Assembly: GCF_025273655.1 (NCBI RefSeq) | Contig: NZ_CP045921.1 | Location: 390,001-422,000 of the forward strand | Direction of reading: 5' to 3' | Length of the DNA: 32,000 nt | Source of the DNA: Candidatus Saccharimonadota bacterium | GTDB lineage: Bacteria > Patescibacteriota > Saccharimonadia > Saccharimonadales > Saccharimonadaceae | Shown: positions 21,961 to 32,000 of the stretch, piece by piece | How the letters are laid out: each line of letters opens with the position of its first letter | How positions within the stretch are numbered: the stretch's first letter is position 1 | Translations under genes and position numbers: made by a program | The notes under the pieces: generated by a model | Database searches by the model: none | What the model was told of the DNA's origin: nothing | What the model saw: only the letters and a program-made list of their open reading frames with translations

Positions 21961-22392
21961 ATGCCCAAGATCGACGCCGCCGCACCCGTGGCACCCACGA
22001 AGGAAACCGTCAAGACCCCGCTCGACATCGCTGTCGACAAGGTCGTCGCCGAATCCGACTGCACGCCGGCCGAGGCCAAGACCATGATCACCGACTGGCT
22101 CACGCCGATCGTCGAGCGTTCGCGCATGACCGGCGGCACGGCCTACCCGTCCGACAGCGAGATGTTCGTCGGCGGCTACGGCTCCACCGAGAACACGCGT
22201 TCGTACGCGATCCTCGATCAGGTGATGCCCCACGGAGAGGCGTCGACCCCGGGCTCCGCGCACGAGGCCATCGAGAAGGTCGTACTCGACCCCAGTCGGG
22301 ACGAGTACGGACTCATCCACGATCAGACCGGTGACACGCAGCGCCACTGCACCGTCACCACCATGATCGGGACGGTCTCCGGCCTGAGCTGA
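21961..22392 (+). CDS. Acidic hypothetical protein (143 aa), strongly elevated GC
   Basis: Own promoter, SD and terminators. Hand count of 22021-22080 gives 40 G+C of 60. About 21 D/E versus about 11 K/R by hand count. No family recognised. Confidence 0.55.
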   Translation: MPKIDAAAPVAPTKETVKTPLDIAVDKVVAESDCTPAEAKTMITDWLTPIVERSRMTGGTAYPSDSEMFVGGYGSTENTRSYAILDQVMPHGEASTPGSAHEAIEKVVLDPSRDEYGLIHDQTGDTQRHCTVTTMIGTVSGLS

Positions 22393-22408
22393 TCGGCTCC
22401 TTCCAACC

Positions 22409-22443
22409 CCTGCGTGGTGGCTCACCTAGAGCCACCACGCAGG
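22409..22443 (+). terminator. 15-bp perfect hairpin after the 143-aa ORF
   Basis: CCTGCGTGGTGGCTC (22409-22423) pairs with GAGCCACCACGCAGG (22429-22443), with a 5-nt loop. Confidence 0.45.
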
Positions 22444-22468
22444 TGGAAGAACATTTGCTTCAAATCTT

Positions 22469-22495
22469 CCGTCGATTAGACGGCTTTTATTTTTG
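22469..22495 (+). terminator. Canonical intrinsic terminator
   Basis: CCGTC (22469-22473) pairs with GACGG (22479-22483), followed by CTTTTATTTTTG. Confidence 0.6.
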
Positions 22496-22606
22496 TCATT
22501 TGTAAAATGTACGATCTAGATAGTCTTTTGTCGGGCCGCGGCGGCTTACTGGCTCACAAAGACGTTCATCGGGAGAGCATGATGCCTGCTGTCTATGGTA
22601 TGATGT

Positions 22607-23101
22607 TCAGCTGCTATCTCTTTTCATTCTGTGCCACAGTCTCGGAATTACCTCGAAGCAAACCGTCACCAATATGATGAACAACACCATCCTCAGATCC
22701 CAATTATATTTATCTAGTACAAGGGCAACGATGATAAGCGACAAAAGTATTACGCCCATCGCCATATCCCAGCCTTCACGACTATACACCCAGCCAAATC
22801 GTACTATATAGTCTTCGGTGTTGGTCAAATCACCACCGCGTACGTTGTTGAGACCCTTTTCTTTCATGAGCTGGCGTGTGATTGTGTTCTCATACGTTTC
22901 CGCATGCTCTTTACTCACAATGCCTAGATCTTCAAACTTTTCAATTTCAATCGGCTTGTGCACCTTTGTCCAGTAGGCACCACGAATACCGAGTTGGTGC
23001 TCGCGAAAACGTGCCTCTGGCGTTTTCGATGTGATACCTACGTACCACTTTTCATTCTCAAGCTTGAGGATGTAAAGCCACCAACGTTTCTCAGACATCA
23101 T
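22607..23101 (-). CDS. GIY-YIG nuclease domain protein with two C-terminal TM helices
   Basis: WWLYILKLENEKWYVGITSKTPEARFREHQ...YENTITRQLM...NNVRGG fits the GIY...YIG...R...E...N pattern. C-terminal MAMGVILLSLIIVALVL and MVLFIILVTVCFEVI are hydrophobic helices. ATG-ATG at 23101/23098 overlaps the hsdR stop. The track's GTG 23113 is an alternative start. Confidence 0.7.
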   Translation of the reverse strand: MMSEKRWWLYILKLENEKWYVGITSKTPEARFREHQLGIRGAYWTKVHKPIEIEKFEDLGIVSKEHAETYENTITRQLMKEKGLNNVRGGDLTNTEDYIVRFGWVYSREGWDMAMGVILLSLIIVALVLDKYNWDLRMVLFIILVTVCFEVIPRLWHRMKRDSS

Positions 23102-25952
23102 CGACAAACACACGTATAAACTTGGTGAACTTGTCTGCTATGCGCTCGATCACACTGCTACGCTCCCGTATGCCAGGCGTTTGCGTTAGTGTGCGCACAT
23201 AGTCGTCTTGCCTAGGTTTGCGTCCACTATACGAATAGTCCGCGATGAGCTTTTCTAGTCGTTCGGTGTCTAGCCCTTCTTCACTGGCAAGTTGCTCGAT
23301 CGCCCTCTTCTCTTCGGCGCTCCAATACTTCTGAAACTCAACGTCTACTTGCTCGCTGTCGGTGATGTCGGGGAGCCAGCCGCTTATGAACTTCTCGATC
23401 AGTTCACGTTTGCTACGGAGTTTTTCGTCGCCGCTCATCAGGTCATCGATCTGTTTGTGCAGCTTGGCTTTTTCGGTGTCGTCGGCATCGACGTACCTTG
23501 CAAGCAGGCGTAGTATGTAGTCGACATTTATCTCGTCGCGACGCACGAGCTCTAGCTCGAAATCTACTTCGTTGAGTATCGAATCTTTCTCCGCGTTGTC
23601 ACCTTTGGTCTCAAAATATAGGTCGAGATATTTGCTTTTGTAATCCTCGAATTGCTGTGCAGTCATAGCCGTGTCGTCGTAGCCGAAATCGGCAAAGCTT
23701 AGCAGTACATTGCGCGTACGCATGACTTCGCGAAACAGCTCTACGAAATGTCGCTTGGCTTCCTCGCCTACAAGCATATCTACGTCACCTAGGCTCGGTG
23801 TATATGCTAGGAGTGCTGTCACTTGGGCGTCAAACTCGTCCACGTACGTTTCGTACGATTTGAGGAATATCGTTTCGCTGGCGTCTTTGTCGCTAAACAA
23901 GCGCACAGCTTCGTCTGTTCGCTTCTTGAGATTGCGAAACACAACGATATTACCCTGTGATTTGACTTCGTTCAGTATGCGATTGGTGCGGCTATAGGCT
24001 TGTAGTAGTCCGTGGTAGCGTAGGTTCTTGTCAACGTAGAGTGTGTTGAGTGTCTTGCTGTCGAAGCCTGTCAGGAACATATTAACCACCAGTAGGATAT
24101 CGATTTCGCGTGACTTCACACGTTTGGCGATGTCTTTGTAGTAGTTGTAAAAGCTTTTGCTATCACGTGTTGTGTAATTGGTGCCAAACATAGTGTTGTA
24201 GTCGCCCATGGCACGTTCGAGTACGTCGCGCGAGTGTTCGTTTATCTGGGCGCTGCCTGCCATGTCGATATCAACTTCGTCGATCATGCCGTCGGCATCT
24301 TTGTCTTCTTCGTTGGCTTGGTAGCTGAAGATCGTCGCGATTTTGAGATTGTGACTACGCGCAGCAAACGCATCGTAGTATTTGCGTAGTACATCCGTCG
24401 AACCTACGCACATCATGGCGGTGAAATCGCGGTTATGCGTCTTGTAGTCGTGATTCGTGATGATATAGTCAGTGATTTTATCTACCCGTGCGTCGCCTTC
24501 CATAGCTTCGCGCGTATCGATAGCTTCTACGTCTATGTCGATATTTGTCTTGCTATCTTCGCGTTGTTTGAACCGCCCTACGTATTCCACGCTAAACTTC
24601 AGTACATTGCCGTCGTTGATTGCATCGGTAATGACATATTCGTGCAGGCACGCGCCGAACAAATCCGCCGTAGTGCGTTTGCCGAAGCGTGAATTAAAAG
24701 TCGCGTTCTCTGCTTTAATTGGTGTACCGGTGAAGCCAAACATCTGGTAATTTGTGAAGTATTCGGTGATATTGCGATGTGTCTCGCCGAACTGAGAGCG
24801 GTGGCACTCGTCGAAGATGAAGACGATTTTGTTGTCACGTACGGATTCCATTGCGCTGGCATGGCGCTCCCGTTTGATGGCATTGTCGAGCTTCTGTATG
24901 GTCGTGACGATGAGCTTGGTGTCGGGGTCGCTGAGCTGCTTCACGAGTGCTTGCGTATTATCGGTGCCGTCGACACTCCCCTCTTTGAAACTGTTGAACT
25001 CTTTGATCGTCTGGTAATCGAGGTCGTTGCGGTCGACGACGAACAGCACTTTGTCTACCGCCGGGTTTTCTGTCATGATCTGCGCCGCCTTGAAGCTGGT
25101 GAGCGTCTTGCCGCTACCCGTAGTGTGCCATATATAGCCGCCAGTGTTTGATCCGCTGTCGACCTTTTCGATGATGCGCTCTACTGCGTAGTATTGATAT
25201 GGGCGCAACACCATCAATACTTTGTCGGTTTCGTTGAGTACGATGTATTTGGTAATCATGCGCGAGACGTGGCATTTCTCCAGGAAATCACGAGCGAATT
25301 CGTCGATCTGACTGATACGCTTGTTTGCTTTATCCGTCCAGTAAAACGTCTGTTTGAAACTCGCCTTTTTGGTGCCGCCGTAACTCACGCTATTGGCATA
25401 GTATTTTGTGTCGACGCCGTTGCTAATGACGAAAAGCTGTACGTATTGGAATAGGCCGTTTGCGCTGGCGTAACTGTGGCGGCGATAGCGATTTATCTGG
25501 TTGAACGCTTCTTTGAGCTCGATACCACGGCGTTTGAGCTCGATTTGCACCAGTGGTAAGCCGTTAATCAGTAGCGTCACATCGTAGCGAGTGCTATACT
25601 CGCCGTCATTTACAATCTGTTGCGCCACTTGGTACTCGTTGTGGCACCATTTGGCCATGTTAATGAATTCTATATAGGCGCTAGTGCCGTCATCGCGCAC
25701 GAGGTGCATTTTGTCGCGCAGTAGCTTGGCGCGGTCAAACACGTTGCCTTTGTCTAGGTGGTTTACGACGCGTTTAAACTCCGCGTCGCTCAGTGGTGTA
25801 TCACCAAGCTTCTCGGCGTTGTGCTTTTCTAACTGGCACTTGAGGTTCGCGAGCAACTCGTCGTTGTCTGCGATGATGACGCGCTCATACCCCTGCTCCA
25901 CGAGTTGGGCTACAAGGTTGTTCTCGAGGGTTTGTTCAGATTGGGTTGTCAT
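23091..25952 (-). CDS. hsdR: Type I restriction enzyme R subunit (HsdR)
   Basis: N-terminal SEQTLENNLVAQLVEQGYERV, Walker A HTTGSGKT, DEAH-box FIFDECHRSQ, and helicase motifs throughout. Start set at ATG 25952 (MTTQSEQ...); the track's 26033 adds 27 aa that overlap the upstream ORF. Confidence 0.95.
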   Translation of the reverse strand: MTTQSEQTLENNLVAQLVEQGYERVIIADNDELLANLKCQLEKHNAEKLGDTPLSDAEFKRVVNHLDKGNVFDRAKLLRDKMHLVRDDGTSAYIEFINMAKWCHNEYQVAQQIVNDGEYSTRYDVTLLINGLPLVQIELKRRGIELKEAFNQINRYRRHSYASANGLFQYVQLFVISNGVDTKYYANSVSYGGTKKASFKQTFYWTDKANKRISQIDEFARDFLEKCHVSRMITKYIVLNETDKVLMVLRPYQYYAVERIIEKVDSGSNTGGYIWHTTGSGKTLTSFKAAQIMTENPAVDKVLFVVDRNDLDYQTIKEFNSFKEGSVDGTDNTQALVKQLSDPDTKLIVTTIQKLDNAIKRERHASAMESVRDNKIVFIFDECHRSQFGETHRNITEYFTNYQMFGFTGTPIKAENATFNSRFGKRTTADLFGACLHEYVITDAINDGNVLKFSVEYVGRFKQREDSKTNIDIDVEAIDTREAMEGDARVDKITDYIITNHDYKTHNRDFTAMMCVGSTDVLRKYYDAFAARSHNLKIATIFSYQANEEDKDADGMIDEVDIDMAGSAQINEHSRDVLERAMGDYNTMFGTNYTTRDSKSFYNYYKDIAKRVKSREIDILLVVNMFLTGFDSKTLNTLYVDKNLRYHGLLQAYSRTNRILNEVKSQGNIVVFRNLKKRTDEAVRLFSDKDASETIFLKSYETYVDEFDAQVTALLAYTPSLGDVDMLVGEEAKRHFVELFREVMRTRNVLLSFADFGYDDTAMTAQQFEDYKSKYLDLYFETKGDNAEKDSILNEVDFELELVRRDEINVDYILRLLARYVDADDTEKAKLHKQIDDLMSGDEKLRSKRELIEKFISGWLPDITDSEQVDVEFQKYWSAEEKRAIEQLASEEGLDTERLEKLIADYSYSGRKPRQDDYVRTLTQTPGIRERSSVIERIADKFTKFIRVFVDDV

Positions 25953-25957
25953 TGTTT

Positions 25958-26599
25958 TTATTTTATTCCAATAATCTTCTTCAATTTTGATCCTATGCTT
26001 GTGATGCTTATTCTCTGAAGATCCTCGAGACATTTTTCAGCATCATTTTTGTGTTTCACTGGAGTATATCCAAAATCGCCTTGTCGACTCATATAAAGCT
26101 TATCGAATATATCTAGCTTCTGATTATAGTTTTCGAGAACAGCCTCGGCATTTTCGGAGCCCGATTCGTCAATAGTGTTTTTCGTTATATCTGCAATCGC
26201 ACGCTGTTTATTGATTCGTATTTGTGCAACATCCTCACCGAAAGACTTATTGTTTTCCGTAATAGCTTCATCAAGTAACCTAGCGGTCTGATAGAAGTCC
26301 GTAACCGTCTCCCATTCGTCTTTGTCGAAGTCTGCGGAAAACATATGACTATATTTCGACCATGCATCCTCGCGTAATATGTTAAAGTTTAGGTTACTGA
26401 GACCGCCTTGACGCACGGCATCTTTTACCTTAGGAATGCACCTTTCGATATGCTGTATCTCTAAATAAATAGAGTTTGCAGCCGCTCTTTTGCTGTCTTT
26501 CTTTTGACGCGTATAGATATAGAGAGCAACCAGGCCTGCTATAAGGGTAACGACCGTTTGCAGAAAATTTGAATTTAAGAGTTCCCAGGCAGCTTCCAT
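25958..26599 (-). CDS. Hypothetical protein with a single N-terminal TM helix (213 aa)
   Basis: TM helix FLQTVVTLIAGLVALYIYT followed by a charged helical domain. Its ATG 26599 directly abuts the upstream TAG (26602..26600). Its stop lies 5 nt before the hsdR ATG. AT-rich (22 G+C of 60 in 26041-26100). Confidence 0.6.
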   Translation of the reverse strand: MEAAWELLNSNFLQTVVTLIAGLVALYIYTRQKKDSKRAAANSIYLEIQHIERCIPKVKDAVRQGGLSNLNFNILREDAWSKYSHMFSADFDKDEWETVTDFYQTARLLDEAITENNKSFGEDVAQIRINKQRAIADITKNTIDESGSENAEAVLENYNQKLDIFDKLYMSRQGDFGYTPVKHKNDAEKCLEDLQRISITSIGSKLKKIIGIK

Positions 26600-26902
26600 C
26601 TACTTAGCCTCTTTACTTCCTAATTCCGACAGCTTGTCAATCGTTTTAATATCAAGCTTATTAAGTACGTCTAGCATTGCAGACATAGATTCCACTTCAT
26701 CCTTGCTTGGTATCTTGCTGCTCTCTAGTGACCGTATCTTTTCTTGTTGTGCCTCGATCGTTACATATGCACGTTCTAATAGATCGCGCATTTTTTGTAT
26801 CTTTTTATCGCTATCACCTTCGCTAAAATCGACAGTTGTCTTCAATGAGCCAAGTAGCTCACTGATATTACCCGCATTATTGAGATTGTCATAATCGCTC
26901 AT
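26600..26902 (-). CDS. Small coiled-coil hypothetical protein (100 aa)
   Basis: AAGGA SD upstream of ATG 26902. Heptad-like E/K/L-rich sequence. Starts 16 nt after the hsdS stop. Confidence 0.55.
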   Translation of the reverse strand: MSDYDNLNNAGNISELLGSLKTTVDFSEGDSDKKIQKMRDLLERAYVTIEAQQEKIRSLESSKIPSKDEVESMSAMLDVLNKLDIKTIDKLSELGSKEAK

Positions 26903-26918
26903 TTCTATATTTTTCCTT

Positions 26919-28127
26919 TCATATAAACATCCTCTGCAAAAGTCCCTTCTTCCACTGCTTGGCGGCGGTGAGGCGGGTTTGTTCTGCTGCTATTTTATCA
27001 TCGAGCGCGATGAGGAGGGCGGCGATTTTTTGTTGTTCCTCTTTTGATTTTGGCAAAGTAAGCTCAATATTGAAAAAATCTGAAACGCCGATATTTAGCA
27101 GACCGTGATTTCTTGCGCCCTCTTGGGCTACTTTTTCAATTTCAGAATCTTGAAGCCCATATACGAAAACTTGCTCGAAAAAGTCATTATCATTTGAATC
27201 TTTTGCTCTAAAACAGATATATAAGGTCGATACGATTCCCTTGGTGTACAGGTTTAATTTTTTGATTGCACCCATCGGATATCCGGCTGAATAGCTTTTG
27301 TTGTATGCAAAGTCTCCCATGGTAAGCATGAAATAGTTTGTTACATTCTTTGCGGCAACAATCTTACTAAAGAAATCGGTCTGACTTATAAGTCCCTGCT
27401 GTGCAGAAATGGTAAGTACATTTTGATTGTTTTCTTTATTTTTGTCTGTAACTCGATCAAATAGATCTCCGAGTCGCTTTTTCTCCCACTCAGGATATGG
27501 ATTTCCGTTTTCGTCCCTGAAGCGAATAGCCTGGGTGAAGATTTTTTGCATGACACCTTTTTTATACTTCTGTAGCAGCTCAAGCTTTTTCTCGCCCGCC
27601 GCAATCCGCTCATCGACGAGTGTCAAAAATTCGGCAATTTTTTCCTGCTCTGGTTTTGAAGGGACGCTAAGTTTGGTTTTTTGAAACTCACCCTTACTAA
27701 TAATTGGAACAGCTTGCTCTCCGGCAAGCAAAGATATTCTTCTAGATAAGCGGCTCAATGCCAAATAAACAAAGTCGTCGTCAACATTATTATCATCTCC
27801 AATCACGGAATTGATTTGCTGATTGGTTGTGCACTCTATCGTAGCCTGGGCTGTTTTCCCAATCGTTGATCCTATACATACAAACAAAGTGCTACCTACT
27901 GGTATAGGTCTAGATTTTTCAAAGCCTTTCTGCGATAATTTTGTTCTTGTATTTGTTACATATCGTCCACTATTCATGTCAGCGGGGCTAATAAATAAAA
28001 ATTCATCACCGTACAGGCTCATATCTGCGGTACTCGGAGTGCTACCGGTAACTACTCGAGCAATATCGCCAAGCTTCTTTAACTGCCATTTATCAGTAAA
28101 CGCTGGAAAACGAAGTTGAGGAGTCAC
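26919..28127 (-). CDS. hsdS: Type I restriction-modification S subunit (HsdS), two target recognition domains
   Basis: LRFPAFTDKWQLKKLGDIARVVTGSTPS at the N-terminus. Two conserved spacer repeats, EQEKIAEFLTLVDERIAAGEKKLELLQKYKKGVMQKIF and EEQQKIAALLIALDDKIAAEQTRLTAAKQWKKGLLQRMF. GTG start 28127. Confidence 0.9.
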   Translation of the reverse strand: MTPQLRFPAFTDKWQLKKLGDIARVVTGSTPSTADMSLYGDEFLFISPADMNSGRYVTNTRTKLSQKGFEKSRPIPVGSTLFVCIGSTIGKTAQATIECTTNQQINSVIGDDNNVDDDFVYLALSRLSRRISLLAGEQAVPIISKGEFQKTKLSVPSKPEQEKIAEFLTLVDERIAAGEKKLELLQKYKKGVMQKIFTQAIRFRDENGNPYPEWEKKRLGDLFDRVTDKNKENNQNVLTISAQQGLISQTDFFSKIVAAKNVTNYFMLTMGDFAYNKSYSAGYPMGAIKKLNLYTKGIVSTLYICFRAKDSNDNDFFEQVFVYGLQDSEIEKVAQEGARNHGLLNIGVSDFFNIELTLPKSKEEQQKIAALLIALDDKIAAEQTRLTAAKQWKKGLLQRMFI

Positions 28128-28939
28128 TTCTGCGCCTCTTGAGCGAGTTTACTGTACCTCTTCTCGTTCTTCATCCAATTACTTCGATGTTTAATAGACT
28201 GCTTCGACTGCGTTAGCCTCCAAGAATCTTTGACCGGCTCATAACCCAGCGCAGCTAACAACTTGACTGCGTACTCTTCGTTCAGCGCAAGGCGCTTTTT
28301 GACCTCCGAAAGTCTCCACTCGCCCTTCTCGTCTAAAAATTCTCTCAACTGATACGGATAGCGTACTCCATTTTTCTCCTTCCAATTATGAACCAATTTT
28401 CTGAGACCTCTATAACGCCTGAATTGCCACACTCTAATCATCCCCCGGTAGCCTAGCATTCCGAGAGAAAGGCTGCTGTCTAGGAAGCCAATCAAGTCAA
28501 ACGTATCGCCTCCAAGTGCACCAAGACCGTCGGGAACTCTTACATAGACGTGATATGCACTACCTTTTACATATCCATCTTCAACAAGTTCACTAACTTC
28601 ACGAAAAGTCCAATCATAAGATAGAGGCATGTAGCCATCGAGAATTTTAATGCCCCCATCTAAATTGAGTCCGTATTTTATTCCGAAAGTTGAATGCCCG
28701 TCACTACCATGTTTTGACTCGGAGCTAAAGGGTACAAGTGAGAGATGTAGAGGAGTTGCTTCATTAATACTTTCGTAGCCCATTTTTTTCTCAGCAACCT
28801 CTTTTGTGCTTTGAATCTTCCGAAGAGCAAGCACGCGTATCGAGTCGCTGTCTTTCACGCTTTCTTCGAAGTCATACTTAATGATACGCCCAAGATTGTC
28901 CGTATCAGTGAGTCTCAACGATATTATAGCTTTTGTCAT
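28124..28939 (-). CDS. Hypothetical protein (271 aa) inserted between hsdM and hsdS
   Basis: ATG 28939 lies 4 nt after the hsdM stop. Its TGA overlaps the hsdS GTG (GTGA). No family recognised. The basic C-terminal half may be helical or wHTH-like. Confidence 0.6.
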   Translation of the reverse strand: MTKAIISLRLTDTDNLGRIIKYDFEESVKDSDSIRVLALRKIQSTKEVAEKKMGYESINEATPLHLSLVPFSSESKHGSDGHSTFGIKYGLNLDGGIKILDGYMPLSYDWTFREVSELVEDGYVKGSAYHVYVRVPDGLGALGGDTFDLIGFLDSSLSLGMLGYRGMIRVWQFRRYRGLRKLVHNWKEKNGVRYPYQLREFLDEKGEWRLSEVKKRLALNEEYAVKLLAALGYEPVKDSWRLTQSKQSIKHRSNWMKNEKRYSKLAQEAQK

Positions 28940-28943
28940 AGCA

Positions 28944-30488
28944 CTAAAACGGCGATCTAACGCCGAGCTCCTTGGTGAATTTGGCTATCTGCGCGTCAAG
29001 GTCTGAGGTTTTGGCGTCGACGACTCGCAGCTCTGATACGACAGTATCGAGGTCAATCTCTGCTTCTTCCTCGAATGTATCGACGTAGCGTGGGATGTTG
29101 AGATTATAATCGTTTTCTTTGATTTCCTCTACCGTCGCGACATGGCTGTATTTGTCTTCGCTCTTTCGCGCGGCGTATGTCTCGATAATCTTGTCGATGT
29201 CGCTCGAGCGAAGGCGGTTTTGGTTTTTGCCTTTTTCGAAATGCTTACTGGCGTCGATGAATAGCACGTCGTCTGCTATCTTGCATTTGCGGAACACTAA
29301 TATGCATGCTGGGATGCTGGTGCCGTAGAACAGATTTGCCGGCAGGCCGATGACGGCATCGAGATAGTTGCGCTCTATAAGCGCTTGGCGAATCACACCT
29401 TCTGCCGCGCCGCGAAACAGCACACCGTGTGGCATCACCACTGCCATAGTACCGCTGTCGCTGAGCTGGTAGACCATGTGTGAGATGAACGCGTAGTCTG
29501 CCTTGCTGCTGGGCGCGACCTTGCCCCATGGACTGAAGCGTTCGTCTTGTGCGTTGAGAGGGTCGCTGTCGCCCGCCCATTTGGCGCTAAAGGGTGGATT
29601 GGCGATGACGGCCTCGAACCTGTATTCAGTATGTCGCGGATCTTTGAGCGTATCGTCTTGTTTGATATCGAACCTATCAAAATGCACATCGTGCAAAATC
29701 ATATTCATACGAGCAAGATTGTACGTGGTATTGTTCATCTCTTGACCGAAATATTCGTCCACCTCAGCGTAGCGGCCGATACGCAGTAGTAGCGAACCCG
29801 AGCCACAGGCTGGGTCGTACACGCTTTTGAGCCGCTTCTTGCCATTCGTGACGATACGTGCGAGTACTTGGCTGACTTCTTGCGGCGTGTAGAATTCTCC
29901 AGCCTTTTTGCCTGCGCCGCTAGCGAACTGGCCGATGAGGTATTCGTAGGCGTCGCCGAGGATATCGATCTGGCTGTTGCCGAGCTGGAAATCGATCTTG
30001 TCGAGGTGTTTGAGCACCCTGGCGATCAGTTCAGCACGAGCGTTGACTGTCTTGCCGAGTTTGGTTGCGTTGAGATCAAGTTCCGAGAACAGCTTATCGA
30101 AATCTTCCTCGCTGTCGGTACCCATGGTGCTGCTTTCGATATTGGCGAGGATACGCTGCAAGTCTTCTATGTAATCGTCGAGTTGAGTGCGCTCGGCCAT
30201 CTTGCTGAAAAGCTCGCTCGGAAGCAGAAAATAGCCGAGATGATCAAGCGCGGCTTTGCGCACTTCGTCGATAATCTCGAAATCGGTGTCTGGCACGTCT
30301 TTGTATACGATATCCTCACTTGCAAGCAAGTCGGTATCTGCGTAGAGCTCCAGCTTTTCGGAGAGGTATTTGTAAAAGATGAAACCAAGAATGTAGTCAC
30401 GAAACTCATCGGCGTCCATCTTACCGCGGAGCTCGTTGGCAATGTTCCAGAGTGATGTTTGGAGTTGTTTTTTCTGATCTTCGGACAC
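28944..30488 (-). CDS. hsdM: Type I restriction-modification M subunit (HsdM, N6-adenine DNA methyltransferase)
   Basis: HsdM N-terminal LWNIANELRGKMDADEFRDYILGFIFYKYLSE, SAM motif VYDPACGSGSLL, and catalytic IANPPFS. GTG start 30488 with GAGAGGGA SD. Confidence 0.95.
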   Translation of the reverse strand: MSEDQKKQLQTSLWNIANELRGKMDADEFRDYILGFIFYKYLSEKLELYADTDLLASEDIVYKDVPDTDFEIIDEVRKAALDHLGYFLLPSELFSKMAERTQLDDYIEDLQRILANIESSTMGTDSEEDFDKLFSELDLNATKLGKTVNARAELIARVLKHLDKIDFQLGNSQIDILGDAYEYLIGQFASGAGKKAGEFYTPQEVSQVLARIVTNGKKRLKSVYDPACGSGSLLLRIGRYAEVDEYFGQEMNNTTYNLARMNMILHDVHFDRFDIKQDDTLKDPRHTEYRFEAVIANPPFSAKWAGDSDPLNAQDERFSPWGKVAPSSKADYAFISHMVYQLSDSGTMAVVMPHGVLFRGAAEGVIRQALIERNYLDAVIGLPANLFYGTSIPACILVFRKCKIADDVLFIDASKHFEKGKNQNRLRSSDIDKIIETYAARKSEDKYSHVATVEEIKENDYNLNIPRYVDTFEEEAEIDLDTVVSELRVVDAKTSDLDAQIAKFTKELGVRSPF

Positions 30489-30518
30489 TGACGGTTCCCT
30501 CTCTTTTGTACTAGCTTA

Positions 30519-30527
30519 ATTATAGCG
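30519..30527 (-). promoter_or_regulatory. Candidate -10 (CGCTATAAT) for the hsd operon
   Basis: Complement of 30519-30527 reads CGCTATAAT, about 30 nt upstream of GTG 30488. The -35 is weak (TGGCAA). It lies in the 84-nt gap after the 260-aa gene. Confidence 0.45.
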
Positions 30528-30572
30528 AGGTACTTGAGATTTTGCCAGTGAAGAGATTTTCACCCGTGAGAA

Positions 30573-31355
30573 CTACACGTCCATCCCGATATTGCGCATG
30601 GCGTGCTTCATGCTACGTAGCGTGAAGTATGCAAGGTCGAGATGGCGTTGTTCGGGTGAGAACTCACGATCAAACATTGCACGAGCTGCAGTATCGTCTG
30701 TAGATTCTAGCTGTTCGAGGTGTAGAGCTGCATCAGCGCGAAATTGCAGCGGCGTGGGTAGATTGAAAAAATCCATATTAATGTGATCGGAATCGTCATT
30801 TAGATCTGCGATAGTGATTGCGGTTGCTTCATCTTCGTCGTCTTGTGGCATGTTGGTGCATGTGGCAACAATCTCGTTGCCGCCCATGTCGAGATATTTC
30901 GCATTTTGACATACATGGAGCTTCTCGTCTTCGGTATCAATATGCACTTCTACTGATTGGATGGCATTGACAGGTTCGGCTTGTTCGAGCGGGTTTGTAT
31001 ACGCACCGTAGACATACCGGGCTAGGTGTTCGGGCAATGCTACGTTGTCTAGTGCGCTAGTGGCGCAGAAGTTGTAAGTGACCATGGAGAAATCTGCACT
31101 TGGATACTCGCGAGTTGCCATAAAACCGTATTGTGTCGTGAGTGCGCTTGATAGCATTGAAGATTCACCGCGTTGGCGTAAATAGCTGTCTTCTCGAACT
31201 GGATCGGTATGAGTGAGCTCGACGGACCACTCACCGACTTTACGCTCACGAAATCCACGGTGGACTCGTGCAAGTCGATTGAGTTCTAAGAGCAGCGCGT
31301 CTGTAGTGTAGTTGGCGCGGCCGGCGGCGATGCGTTCATGAATAGATGGCTTCAT
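30573..31355 (-). CDS. Acidic hypothetical protein (260 aa)
   Basis: Long ORF with no family recognised. GAGAG lies 5 nt upstream of ATG 31355. Confidence 0.6.
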   Translation of the reverse strand: MKPSIHERIAAGRANYTTDALLLELNRLARVHRGFRERKVGEWSVELTHTDPVREDSYLRQRGESSMLSSALTTQYGFMATREYPSADFSMVTYNFCATSALDNVALPEHLARYVYGAYTNPLEQAEPVNAIQSVEVHIDTEDEKLHVCQNAKYLDMGGNEIVATCTNMPQDDEDEATAITIADLNDDSDHINMDFFNLPTPLQFRADAALHLEQLESTDDTAARAMFDREFSPEQRHLDLAYFTLRSMKHAMRNIGMDV

Positions 31356-31403
31356 AGTGCTCTCAATGTACTACGGCAAAGGTAGAAAGAAAAGCATAAG
31401 GGG

Positions 31404-31565
31404 GCAAAAGCCCGGCCTCGCTTTGCTCGTAGATTCACCAAGAATAACACCCGTCGCGGGGATGAGTGTTATTCTCGGTGACTTACCGGTCCAGCGCAAG
31501 ATGGTATAGCTATTCTAGCTTTACCATCGACTAACTATTGTCAAATCAAAGATTATGACAATAGT
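31404..31565. other. Cluster of stable hairpins in an ORF-free spacer (possible structured RNA; strand undetermined)
   Basis: Four helices are visible. First, 31404-31411/31420-31426. Second, 31436-31450/31466-31480, which is 15 bp with 1 mismatch. Third, 31501-31506/31522-31527 with an inner 31508-31512/31516-31520. Fourth, 31534-31543/31556-31565, which is 10 bp. Confidence 0.25.
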
Positions 31566-31604
31566 CGAACCCTCCGGCGTTCGATTCCGGCGAATGAATT
31601 CGCT

Positions 31605-31648
31605 CATAGAAAAAGCCCCAGACATGAATGCCTGAGGCTTTTTCTATG
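31605..31648 (-). terminator. Hairpin terminator immediately after tRNA-Glu (potentially bidirectional)
   Basis: CATAGAAAAAGCC (31605-31617) pairs with GGCTTTTTCTATG (31636-31648). T5 follows the GC core on both strands. Confidence 0.6.
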
Positions 31649-31721
31649 GTGACCTTACCGGGAATCGAACCCGGATTGCCAGGATGAGAACCTGATGTCC
31701 TAACCGTTAGACGATAAGGCC
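31647..31721 (-). tRNA. tRNA-Glu (anticodon CUC), CCA encoded
   Basis: Reverse complement GGCCTTATCGTCTAACGGTTAGGACATCAGGTTCTCATCCTGGCAATCCGGGTTCGATTCCCGGTAAGGTCACCA folds by hand into a cloverleaf. Acceptor GGCCTTA/TAAGGTC. 3-bp D stem GTC/GAC, typical of tRNA-Glu. Anticodon stem TCAGG/CCTGG with loop TTCTCAT. T arm CCGGG-TTCGATT-CCCGG. Confidence 0.9.
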
Positions 31722-31864
31722 AAATTCTGAGTGATGCGTGTCAAAAATTAGCTAGCTCATTTTTGACCGAATCCGAGGAATTTGGAGCTTATATGGTTGC
31801 GAGGCAATCCATATAGGGCTATGTAATAAACCTACCCTACTCTACCAAAAACTCCTACCCCTGT

Positions 31865-32000
31865 CTAGTCGTCGTGCTGCGTGCTATCGAGTGATTCGAT
31901 GATGCTCAGGAGCTTGCGCGGAGTGATATCTGCTTTGATTAGGTAGCCGTCGGCATGATGCTCCATCGCCATGCGCGATTCTTCGTCTTGTTCGAAATTT
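31865..32000 (-). CDS. C-terminal end of a response-regulator receiver-domain protein (5' part outside window)
   Basis: Manual translation: ...NFEQDEESRMAMEHHADGYLIKADITPRKLLSIIESLDSTQHDD*. The A(D)GYLIK...L pattern resembles the alpha4-beta5-alpha5 end of CheY-like receivers. Confidence 0.45.
   Translation of the reverse strand, partial: NFEQDEESRMAMEHHADGYLIKADITPRKLLSIIESLDSTQHDD

What the first reader, a model, noticed from the sequence alone, without database searches (positions are those of the whole stretch)
22607..30488. Seven-gene Type I R-M operon in which hsdM, hsdS and hsdR are each separated by uncharacterised genes
Seen in sequence. The minus-strand order is:
- hsdM (30488..28944)
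- a 271-aa unknown, starting 4 nt after the hsdM stop, whose TGA overlaps the hsdS GTG as GTGA
- hsdS (28127..26919)
- a 100-aa coiled-coil protein, after a 16-nt gap
- a 213-aa protein with an N-terminal TM helix, whose ATG directly abuts the previous TAG
- hsdR (25952..23091), starting 5 nt after the previous TAA
- a GIY-YIG nuclease with 2 TM helices, overlapping the hsdR stop by 11 nt

Only one promoter-like element is visible, upstream of hsdM, and there are no internal terminators. All seven genes are therefore probably co-transcribed and translationally coupled.

Established knowledge. Canonical Type I systems need only hsdR, hsdM and hsdS. Type I loci are known to host embedded second-line defence genes, for example the PrrC anticodon nuclease inside the EcoprrI hsd locus, and RloC.

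Inference. The four extra genes match nothing I recognise. Together they supply a membrane anchor, a coiled-coil adaptor and a nuclease. They may form an undescribed accessory defence or abortive-infection module gated by the R-M complex.
Basis: partly seen in the sequence, partly recalled or inferred. Interest (0 to 1): 0.85.

Follow-up and report, generated by a model that had tools for sequence, protein, structure and literature searches.

The report
Type I restriction operon with embedded cargo
A restriction-modification operon in the cultivated parasitic bacterium Candidatus Mycosynbacter amalyticus carries four extra uncharacterised genes, but they are three separately mobile passengers of a kind often found inside such operons, not one new machine.

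Summary
hsdM, hsdS and hsdR are an intact EcoR124-like Type I system in Candidatus Mycosynbacter amalyticus (Saccharibacteria).

The four extra genes do not form one module. They travel as three independent units:
- A (271 aa) belongs to an unnamed family of at least 157 clusters. Its confident model shows a beta-rich N-domain and a winged-helix-like C-domain. It overlaps the hsdS start by 4 nt (1 nt in one) in five different hsd loci, occurs alone elsewhere, and sits next to AbiH on Enterococcus plasmids.
- B–C (100 aa acidic protein plus 213 aa membrane-anchored protein) is a Saccharibacteria cassette. Most copies have no hsd gene within 10 kb. In related loci the same hsdS-to-hsdR slot holds DUF5343–HEPN_Swt1, a Schlafen/AlbA_2 protein or an ABC-type ATPase.
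- D is a membrane-anchored GIY-YIG nuclease of the UPF0213 type, common in these bacteria and only sometimes next to hsdR.

No other locus carries all four. A, B and C match no Pfam family above cut-off or PADLOC family, and no solved structure.

This is a new instance, with new cargo families, of the known "genes embedded in Type I R-M" pattern. Defence roles for the cargo are inferred, not shown.

The parts
30519..30548 (-). Promoter-like element upstream of hsdM (CTGGCA-18-TATAAT).
   Evidence: This is the best-scoring minus-strand consensus match in 22000-32000 (10 of 12). An RBS-like AAAGAGAGGG lies before the GTG. It is a consensus match only.
28944..30488 (-). hsdM, the Type I N6-adenine methyltransferase subunit (514 aa).
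   Evidence: Pfam N6_Mtase 6.1e-113 and HsdM_N 2.8e-16. PADLOC MTase_I 5e-169. The DPACGSG and NPPF motifs are in the translation.
28950..28965 (-). Weak hairpin plus T-run overlapping the hsdM stop. It may be an attenuator.
   Evidence: Terminator-like scan, five G-C pairs followed by TTTTAG. The number of such sites in the region is not above the shuffles.
28124..28939 (-). Gene A (271 aa, GII36_02300): an unnamed family with a beta-rich N-domain, a GLGAxG loop and a winged-helix-like C-domain. It is translationally coupled to hsdS.
   Evidence: No family hit. 157 remote relatives. AF2 model with pLDDT 90.4. No Foldseek match. It lies immediately upstream of hsdS in five loci. It lies next to AbiH on E. 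faecalis plasmids.
26919..28127 (-). hsdS, the specificity subunit with two target-recognition domains (402 aa).
   Evidence: Pfam Methylase_S 2.1e-30 in two stretches. PADLOC Specificity_I 7.8e-114. GC 0.41.
26600..26902 (-). Gene B (100 aa, acidic, predicted helical): the first gene of the B-C cassette.
   Evidence: A B homologue lies directly upstream of C in 13 of 25 C-family loci. The C-terminal motif KLPSKDEVESMSAMLDVLNKLD is conserved. No curated family match.
25958..26599 (-). Gene C (213 aa): an N-terminal transmembrane anchor with a helical domain that is probably cytoplasmic. It is the second gene of the B-C cassette.
   Evidence: 47 homologue clusters. 22 species-representative loci, nearly all Saccharibacteria. 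TM segment at 10-30 followed by RQKKDSKR. No Pfam, PADLOC or PDB match.
23091..25952 (-). hsdR, the restriction/translocase subunit, EcoR124-like (953 aa from the ATG at 25952).
   Evidence: Pfam HSDR_N, SWI2_SNF2, ResIII, T1R_D3-like and EcoR124_C. TIGR00348 hsdR 2e-152. PADLOC REase_I 1060 bits.
22607..23101 (-). Gene D (164 aa from the ATG at 23101): a GIY-YIG nuclease domain with two C-terminal TM helices. It overlaps the hsdR stop.
   Evidence: Pfam GIY-YIG 6.8e-7, above cut-off. The closest solved sequences are UPF0213 EF2693 and BH0048. More than 136 homologue clusters. Catalytic-type residues are invariant in the alignment. TM segments are shown.

Best explanation
**What it is.** The locus is a functional-looking EcoR124-type (family IC-like) Type I R-M operon (hsdM-hsdS-hsdR) in the Saccharibacterium Candidatus Mycosynbacter amalyticus. 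It acts as a scaffold for three independently acquired cargo units that are co-transcribed with it:
1. A sits in the hsdM-to-hsdS slot.
2. The two-gene B-C cassette sits in the hsdS-to-hsdR slot.
3. D is appended after hsdR.

**How the scaffold behaves.** Related Saccharibacteria keep the same hsdM/hsdR frame (60-73% identity) but fill the slots with other genes, including recognised abortive-infection and defence domains. The low GC of A-hsdS-B-C fits cassette exchange between the conserved hsdM and hsdR arms.

**Inferred mechanism.**
- The R-M core restricts unmethylated DNA.
- The cargo genes are independent add-on defence or addiction candidates that gain co-expression and co-inheritance by being embedded.
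- A is most likely a DNA-binding (winged-helix) regulator or sensor-type accessory protein that associates with different defence genes (HsdS, AbiH).
- B-C is most likely a neutraliser plus membrane-anchored effector pair. This is an inference from position and architecture only.
- D is a membrane-tethered cytoplasmic GIY-YIG nuclease.

The architecture and the independent distributions are shown. The functions of the cargo are inferred.
For: **The core is intact.**

**Organism.** names GII36_02300 of Ca. M. amalyticus.

**Orthologous scaffolds with different cargo:**
- L003: M-A-S-205aa-R.
- L007: M-109aa-A-S-SLFN_AlbA_2-R-T5orf172.
- L045: M-180-260-A-S-DUF5343-HEPN_Swt1-R.
- L016/L023: M-RhuM-DUF3800-GIY-YIG/DUF4357-233-286-S-B-C-R.
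- L020: S-AAA_15/21 ATPase-R-D-like.

**Independence of the units:**
- B-C occurs without any hsd hit within 8-10 kb in most loci. B is the only neighbour of C that is conserved across divergent loci.
- D-like genes lie next to an MmeI-like gene, an inovirus-like element, or an AAA_13 ATPase ahead of rpsF-ssb-rpsR.
- A-like genes occur alone (L047, L050) and beside AbiH in two different arrangements on E. faecalis plasmids.

**GC content.** hsdM 0.52 and hsdR 0.50, against A 0.44, hsdS 0.41, B 0.39 and C 0.40.

**Precedent:**
- Embedded genes are frequent in Type I R-M. They share the orientation of the host system in 96.7% of cases, and more than half are of unknown function (10.1101/2024.01.29.577857).
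- DarTG2 lies between hsdS and hsdR in a seven-ORF EPEC island (PMC12255303).
- TgvAB lies inside the Vibrio cholerae Type I R-M cluster (PMC11411939).
Against: - No experiment or transcript data exist for this locus.
- The defence role of A, B-C and D rests only on position.
- Divergent C-like genes without B sit in housekeeping neighbourhoods, for example between tuf and rpsJ in L044.
- D-like proteins are highly conserved (more than 50% identity across many clusters). Both points fit cellular rather than defence roles.
- A overlaps the hsdS start in all five hsd-embedded cases. This hints at a functional tie to HsdS rather than pure hitch-hiking.
- Only about 8 A contexts and 6 D contexts could be read, so the association frequencies are rough.
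Confidence: 0.7

Rival explanations
1. A, B, C and D together form a single undescribed accessory defence or abortive-infection module (membrane anchor, coiled-coil adaptor and nuclease) that is gated by the R-M complex.
For: All seven genes are tightly packed with overlaps or gaps of at most 16 nt behind one good promoter-like site. GIY-YIG-clan genes recur in or after related hsd loci: T5orf172 after hsdR in L007, and GIY-YIG/DUF4357 after hsdM in L016 and L046.
Against: The four-gene set occurs only in the window and its identical assemblies. A-containing hsd loci carry other genes in the B-C slot. The other B-C-containing hsd locus, L016, lacks A and D. B-C and D are mostly found away from hsd.
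Confidence: 0.06
2. A is a dedicated accessory component or regulator of this Type I system. For example, it could control hsdS/hsdR expression or bind DNA together with HsdS. On this model only B-C and D are independent passengers.
For: A-like genes overlap the start of hsdS by 4 nt in window, L003, L007 and L045 and by 1 nt in L046. These loci include one whose hsdM is only 30% identical. A is basic (pI 9.3). Its confident model has an H-H-H-beta-beta winged-helix-like unit at residues 195-242. Regulators associated with Type I R-M are known, such as RptR (PMC12255303).
Against: A-like genes at 37-38% identity stand alone with no hsd gene within 8 kb (L047, L050). The enterococcal relatives pair with AbiH, not hsd. 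Foldseek did not confirm the winged-helix assignment (best E 1e-2, TM about 0.2). Canonical Type I enzymes need no fourth subunit. The upstream regions of hsdM are not conserved between loci, so no operator could be proposed.
Confidence: 0.2
3. The cargo genes are not defence genes. On this model B-C is a Saccharibacteria membrane or cell-envelope pair, D is a housekeeping membrane-tethered nuclease (DNA processing or nucleotide salvage), and both merely lie in a recombination-prone locus.
For: Solitary C-like genes lie next to tuf/rpsJ, a dnaX-like gene and a PBP gene. A short D-like gene lies directly upstream of rpsF-ssb-rpsR. The D family is strongly conserved. There are no PADLOC hits. 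No relatives of A or C were found on IMG/VR viral contigs.
Against: B-C lies in the same hsdS-to-hsdR slot in at least three related loci: window, L016 and the deletion remnant L043. A distant C relative lies there in L018. That slot otherwise holds HEPN_Swt1, Schlafen/AlbA_2 and ABC-ATPase genes. Another B-C copy lies beside VbhA/Fic and IS200. D-like genes follow hsdR, an AAA_13 ATPase and an MmeI-like gene. Per Payne et al., most embedded genes are not housekeeping genes.
Confidence: 0.25

Closest known systems
EPEC RRDM island (RptR, Type I R-M, DarTG2, M48 peptidase); PMC12255303
   Same: It is a seven-ORF, co-oriented Type I R-M island. A two-gene cassette sits between hsdS and hsdR, a further gene follows hsdR, and there is an associated DNA-binding protein.
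   Different: The cargo there is a characterised toxin-antitoxin pair (DarT/DarG). The regulator is small and lies upstream. Here the cargo families are unnamed, A sits between hsdM and hsdS, and nothing has been tested.
Vibrio cholerae VPI-2 Type I R-M with embedded TgvAB; PMC11411939
   Same: Two genes of initially unknown function are embedded inside a Type I R-M operon and act independently of HsdR.
   Different: TgvAB are GmrSD-like type IV restriction proteins. B and C show no nuclease or DUF262/DUF1524 signature.
EcoprrI/PrrC and RloC anticodon nucleases, and the Campylobacter jejuni hsd loci with rlo genes (established knowledge; cited in PMC11411939 and in 10.1101/2024.01.29.577857)
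   Same: The cargo sits between hsd genes, and PrrC occupies the same hsdS-to-hsdR position as B-C. For PrrC there is a functional link to the R-M complex.
   Different: None of A-D has an ABC-ATPase or anticodon-nuclease domain. Unlike PrrC, which is almost exclusively embedded, B-C and D are mostly not embedded.
'Guilt-by-embedding' phage-defence candidates (Payne et al., 10.1101/2024.01.29.577857)
   Same: The cargo genes are uncharacterised, share the orientation of a Type I R-M system and are nested inside it. Such genes are often found more commonly outside than inside these systems.
   Different: None of A-D matches a PADLOC v2.0.0 model. That survey used RefSeq genomes, whereas these families are essentially confined to Saccharibacteria metagenome assemblies, apart from the enterococcal A-like genes.
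UPF0213/YhbQ-type GIY-YIG proteins (PDB 1ywl, 1zg2)
   Same: The D nuclease domain aligns with them (3.5e-7 and 2.3e-3). D keeps the Tyr/Tyr/Arg/His/Glu/Asn pattern.
   Different: D carries one or two C-terminal transmembrane helices. The solved proteins are about 100-aa soluble domains.

Membership tests
Type I restriction-modification system (EcoR124-like / family IC-like) | HsdM with an N6-adenine MTase domain and an HsdM_N domain, with catalytic NPPF and AdoMet-binding motifs. | tested here: met
   Pfam N6_Mtase 6.1e-113 and HsdM_N 2.8e-16. DPACGSG and NPPF are in the translation.
Type I restriction-modification system (EcoR124-like / family IC-like) | HsdS with two target-recognition domains. 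| tested here: met
   Methylase_S in two stretches. The full-length Specificity_I model matches at 7.8e-114.
Type I restriction-modification system (EcoR124-like / family IC-like) | HsdR with an N-terminal PD-(D/E)xK nuclease, an SF2 motor and an EcoR124-type C-terminal domain, in the gene order hsdM-hsdS-hsdR. | tested here: met
   HSDR_N 4e-41, SWI2_SNF2 1.9e-66, T1R_D3-like 1e-55 and EcoR124_C 6.5e-63. D..ELK and DECH are in the translation.
Type I restriction-modification system (EcoR124-like / family IC-like) | Demonstrated methylation of a bipartite motif and ATP-dependent restriction. | not testable with these tools
   This needs a SMRT or nanopore methylome and a restriction assay.
PrrC/RloC-type R-M-embedded anticodon nucleases | An ABC-type ATPase N-domain (AAA_13-like) plus a C-terminal anticodon-nuclease domain. 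| tested here: not met
   None of A-D gives such a hit in Pfam or PADLOC.
PADLOC known or candidate defence families (including the embedded candidates) | A significant match to a PADLOC-DB v2.0.0 model. | tested here: not met
   A, B and D give no hit. C gives only a 0.0095 hit to a TM segment. Family-wide scans give only scattered single-member hits.
GIY-YIG nuclease superfamily (gene D) | The GIY and YIG motifs with conserved Arg, Glu and Asn, and a Pfam PF01541 score above cut-off. | tested here: met
   29.9 bits against a cut-off of 22.6. Y10, Y20, R31, H35, E71 and N85 are invariant in 20 homologues. The UPF0213 structures are the nearest solved sequences.
Type II toxin-antitoxin pair (B-C) | Two small adjacent co-oriented genes, with a toxin belonging to a known toxin fold and an antitoxin that neutralises it. 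| tested here: inconclusive
   Adjacency is conserved in 13 loci. Neither protein matches any toxin or antitoxin family. Toxicity was not tested.
Defence-associated wHTH regulators (BrxR/CapW WYL type, C-proteins, RptR) for gene A | A recognised HTH/wHTH domain hit plus a WYL or equivalent sensor domain, and an operator in the promoter. | tested here: not met
   There is no HTH or WYL Pfam hit, and only 1 of 80 members gives a weak HTH_IclR hit. Foldseek gives no significant match. No conserved upstream sequence was found. The winged-helix-like topology is seen only in the DSSP string of the model.

The most novel reading that the evidence does not exclude
Gene A is a previously unrecognised fourth component of a subset of Type I R-M systems. 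On this reading it is a beta-rich/winged-helix protein made in step with HsdS that regulates or modulates the specificity/methylase complex, and that is reused with AbiH. In addition, B-C is a new membrane-acting abortive-infection pair specific to ultrasmall CPR bacteria, which largely lack CRISPR.
Probability: 0.12. Interest if true: 0.7.

Novelty: new variant of a known kind. Interest (0 to 1): 0.42.

Why it matters
CPR/Saccharibacteria have tiny genomes and rarely carry CRISPR-Cas (PMC6509639), so how they resist phages and foreign DNA is poorly known. Three features make this locus useful:
- It lies in one of the few cultivated members, Ca. M. amalyticus on Gordonia amarae (PMC11880426).
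- It shows that the R-M operons of these bacteria act as exchangeable cargo platforms, as in well-studied bacteria.
- It nominates two unnamed protein families as testable defence candidates: A, tied to HsdS and AbiH, and the B-C pair.

The general principle, genes embedded in Type I R-M, is already established. The gain is therefore new candidates and a phylum-specific example, not a new concept.

Tried and rejected
- **DNA similarity.** Near-identity DNA searches of the locus against E. coli genomes, plasmids and phages found nothing.
- **Family libraries.** Pfam, NCBIfam, PHROGs and PADLOC gave only weak, coiled-coil-like or TM-like hits for A, B and C.
- **Solved structures.** PDB sequence searches with the A and C profiles found nothing.
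- **Fold search.** Foldseek of the confident A model against PDB and BFVD gave no match better than E 1e-2 at TM about 0.2. The hits were beta-grasp/ubiquitin-like and stray HTH proteins, so no fold family was assigned.
- **C resembling the HsdR C-terminal domain.** Overlapping tblastn hits in L043 suggested this. It was rejected because L043 is an in-frame deletion chimera and hhalign gives probability 0.1.
- **Unrelated genes in equivalent positions.** The gene before hsdS in L016 (286 aa) and the 277-aa gene in L018 are not A relatives. The 205-aa TM protein in the L003 slot is not a C relative.
- **Operator search.** An 8-bp direct repeat flanks the -35 upstream of hsdM, but the upstream regions of four related loci do not align, so no operator was proposed.
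- **Island boundaries.** No repeat of the adjacent tRNA-Glu was found in the window.
- **Viral contigs.** A and C have no relatives in IMG/VR.
- **Alignments too divergent for the metagenome scan.** Alignments A4 and A5 were rejected. The narrower A6 worked.
Full report
**1. Observation**

The region 22607-30488 holds seven co-oriented minus-strand ORFs exactly as described.

I read each junction from the sequence:
- hsdM ends in TAG, followed by 4 nt and then the A ATG.
- The A TGA overlaps the hsdS GTG as GTGA.
- hsdS and B are 16 nt apart.
- The B TAG directly abuts the C ATG.
- The C TAA is followed by 5 nt and then the hsdR ATG at 25952.
- D starts at ATG 23101 or 23098 (or GTG 23113) and overlaps the hsdR TGA.

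The three hsd genes are strongly supported:
- HsdM matches N6_Mtase at 6e-113 plus HsdM_N.
- HsdS matches Methylase_S in two stretches.
- HsdR matches HSDR_N, SWI2_SNF2/ResIII, T1R_D3-like and EcoR124_C. It also matches TIGR00348 and end-to-end PADLOC models.
- The catalytic motifs are visible in the translations (DPACGSG and NPPF in HsdM; D..ELK and DECH in HsdR).
- The PADLOC REase_I alignment starts at residue 28 of the longer ORF, which supports the 25952 start.

For the cargo genes:
- D passes the Pfam GIY-YIG cut-off and has two C-terminal hydrophobic segments.
- C has one N-terminal hydrophobic segment.

The best promoter-like site on this strand lies upstream of hsdM, with an RBS-like sequence before the GTG. 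The consensus scans are not enriched over shuffles, and one weak hairpin with a T-run overlaps the hsdM stop.

**2. Source**

Gene A is 100% identical to GII36_02300 of Candidatus Mycosynbacter amalyticus, on a 1.08-Mb contig. This is a cultivated Saccharibacterium that parasitises Gordonia amarae (PMC11880426).

The window otherwise carries ordinary chromosomal genes. A tRNA-Glu lies 1.2 kb upstream of hsdM. No paper mentions these genes.

**3. Gene A (271 aa)**

*Family.* No curated family matches A. The word-indexed search found only four clusters. An exhaustive profile search found 157 relatives, mostly 250-300 aa. None belongs to a Pfam or PADLOC family.

*Structure.* With an 80-sequence alignment AlphaFold gives a confident model (pLDDT 90.4, pTM 0.87). 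It contains:
- a beta-rich N-domain;
- a conserved P-x-G-L-G-A-x-G loop;
- a long helix;
- an H-H-H-beta-beta unit at residues 195-242 that looks like a winged helix;
- a C-terminal helix.

The protein is basic (pI 9.3). Foldseek found no significant match in PDB or BFVD, so the fold assignment stays tentative.

*Contexts inside hsd loci.* A-like genes lie immediately upstream of hsdS, overlapping its start, in five distinct loci:
- the window;
- L003 (hsdM-A-hsdS-205aa-hsdR);
- L007 (hsdM-109aa-A-hsdS-SLFN_AlbA_2-hsdR-T5orf172);
- L045 (hsdM-180-260-A-hsdS-DUF5343-HEPN_Swt1-hsdR);
- L046, which has a distant hsdM at 30% identity.

*Contexts outside hsd loci.*
- Relatives at 37-38% identity stand alone (L047, L050), the latter after DUF3644 and Fic genes.
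- On Enterococcus faecalis plasmids, A-like genes at 27% identity lie next to AbiH in two different arrangements. These are AbiH then A-like in L130/L131, and A-like then AbiH then an FRG gene in L132.

A is therefore a defence-neighbourhood protein that is recurrently but not exclusively coupled to hsdS.

**4. Genes B and C**

*Family and distribution.* C has 47 homologue clusters of about 210-220 aa. A scan of species-representative genomes returned 22 loci, nearly all Saccharibacteria.

*The B-C pairing.* A B homologue lies directly upstream of C, abutting or overlapping it, in 13 of 25 loci. B is the only neighbour conserved across divergent loci. B-C is therefore a self-contained two-gene cassette.

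*Contexts.*
- Most copies have no hsd hit within 8-10 kb (L008-L015, L024-L040, L042 and L044). One such copy lies near a VbhA/Fic pair and an IS200-type transposase.
- The same hsdS-to-hsdR position is used in L016/L023, where hsdR is 60% identical to the window's.
- It was also used in L043, where an in-frame deletion has fused C to the C-terminal quarter of HsdR.
- A distant C relative occupies that slot in L018.
- More divergent C-like genes lack B and sit beside housekeeping genes. This weakens a pure defence reading.

*Topology.* The C transmembrane segment is followed by RQKKDSKR, which by the positive-inside rule places the bulk of the protein in the cytoplasm (an inference). C was not modelled. 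No family or solved structure matches it.

**5. Gene D**

D has more than 136 homologue clusters. Most are 131-147 aa with one TM helix, and a few are about 163 aa with two. The typical GIY-YIG residues are invariant. The nearest solved sequences are UPF0213 proteins. The nuclease domain also has 31-45% relatives in giant-virus bins.

The contexts vary:

| Locus | Position of the D-like gene |
|---|---|
| Window | Overlapping the hsdR stop |
| L020 | 200 nt after hsdR |
| L046 | 2.5 kb after hsdR |
| L021 | Beside an MmeI-like gene |
| L022 | Beside an inovirus-like element |
| L126 | After an AAA_13 ATPase and before rpsF-ssb-rpsR |

**6. Synthesis**

The loci L003, L007, L016, L043 and L045 share an orthologous hsdM/hsdR frame with the window. 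hsdM is 67-73% identical and hsdR is 60-66% identical. The two internal slots carry different genes from locus to locus, several with recognised abortive-infection or defence domains.

In the window the A-hsdS-B-C block has GC 0.39-0.44, against 0.50-0.52 for hsdM and hsdR. This fits exchange of the middle of the operon between conserved arms, which is an inference.

The four-gene set A+B+C+D is seen only in the window and its identical assemblies. The idea of one integrated accessory module is therefore not supported. The locus is a Type I R-M scaffold carrying three independent cargo units.

**7. Comparison with known systems**

- Embedding of genes in Type I R-M is well documented. Embedded genes share the orientation of the host system in 96.7% of cases, and more than half have no assigned function (10.1101/2024.01.29.577857).
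- TgvAB lies inside the Vibrio cholerae Type I R-M cluster (PMC11411939).
- A seven-ORF EPEC island has DarTG2 between hsdS and hsdR (PMC12255303).
- PrrC and the Campylobacter rlo genes are the classical cases (established knowledge; cited).

What is new here is the identity of the cargo. Two families are absent from Pfam and PADLOC, and the host is a cultivated CPR bacterium, a group that rarely has CRISPR-Cas (PMC6509639).

**8. Verdict**

- The locus is a new variant of a known kind.
- Interest is moderate. A's recurrent coupling to hsdS and its link to AbiH make it the most promising lead.
- The defence functions of A, B-C and D remain inferences. They need the neighbourhood statistics, complex predictions and challenge assays listed under next steps.

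Noticed in passing
window 31647-31721 (-), hairpin 31605-31648: A tRNA-Glu(CTC) with a 21-nt inverted-repeat terminator lies 1.2 kb upstream of hsdM. tRNA genes are common island insertion sites, but no repeat of the tRNA was found elsewhere in the window.
   Followed up: partly
window 30573-31355 (-): A 260-aa acidic ORF (pI 4.8) lies between the tRNA-Glu and the hsdM promoter, co-oriented with the operon. It has no family match, and its only tblastn match among the first 50 fetched loci (L001-L050) was the identical assembly L001.
   Followed up: partly
L043 3061-4077: A single ORF is an in-frame chimera of the first ~134 residues' worth of a C-like gene (up to QIRTNKQRI) fused to the last ~210 residues of HsdR. 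This is a decayed hsd locus that records a former C-hsdR adjacency.
   Followed up: yes
L023 10639-13461 (same genome as L016): hsdR aligns over its full length with the window's HsdR, but it is split into 607-aa and 306-aa ORFs in the same frame. This indicates an in-frame stop, which could be a pseudogene or an assembly error. The gene caller left this stretch uncalled.
   Followed up: no
L130 5734-7726; L132 5001-8593 (Enterococcus faecalis plasmids pKUB3006-2 and LR962455): A-like 'hypothetical proteins' lie next to AbiH genes in two different orders. PBECR4, PemK, Fic and FRG genes are nearby, which suggests an uncharacterised AbiH partner protein in enterococci.
   Followed up: partly
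L044 8638-11972; L031; L030: Divergent C-like genes without a B partner sit in housekeeping neighbourhoods. In L044 the gene lies between an EF-Tu gene (fragmented across frames) and rpsJ. In L031 it follows a clamp-loader-like gene, and in L030 it precedes a PBP-like gene.
   Followed up: partly
L126 4541-7414: A short D-like GIY-YIG/TM gene follows a 742-aa AAA_13 ATPase (the RloC/PrrC-type ATPase family) by 17 nt, just upstream of rpsF-ssb-rpsR.
   Followed up: no
L051-L125 (IMG/VR): The GIY-YIG domain of D has 31-45% identical relatives in 75 viral contigs, most of them giant-virus metagenome bins (GVMAG), covering only residues about 8-96 in nearly all, so without the TM region.
   Followed up: no
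window 30530-30565 (-): An 8-bp direct repeat, AAAATCTC, flanks the -35-like hexamer upstream of hsdM. It is not conserved in related loci, so it may be chance.
   Followed up: partly
L022 2869-6826: An inovirus-like element (Zot-like ATPase, REP_ORF2-G2P replication protein) lies beside a D-like gene on a Saccharibacteria-like contig.
   Followed up: no
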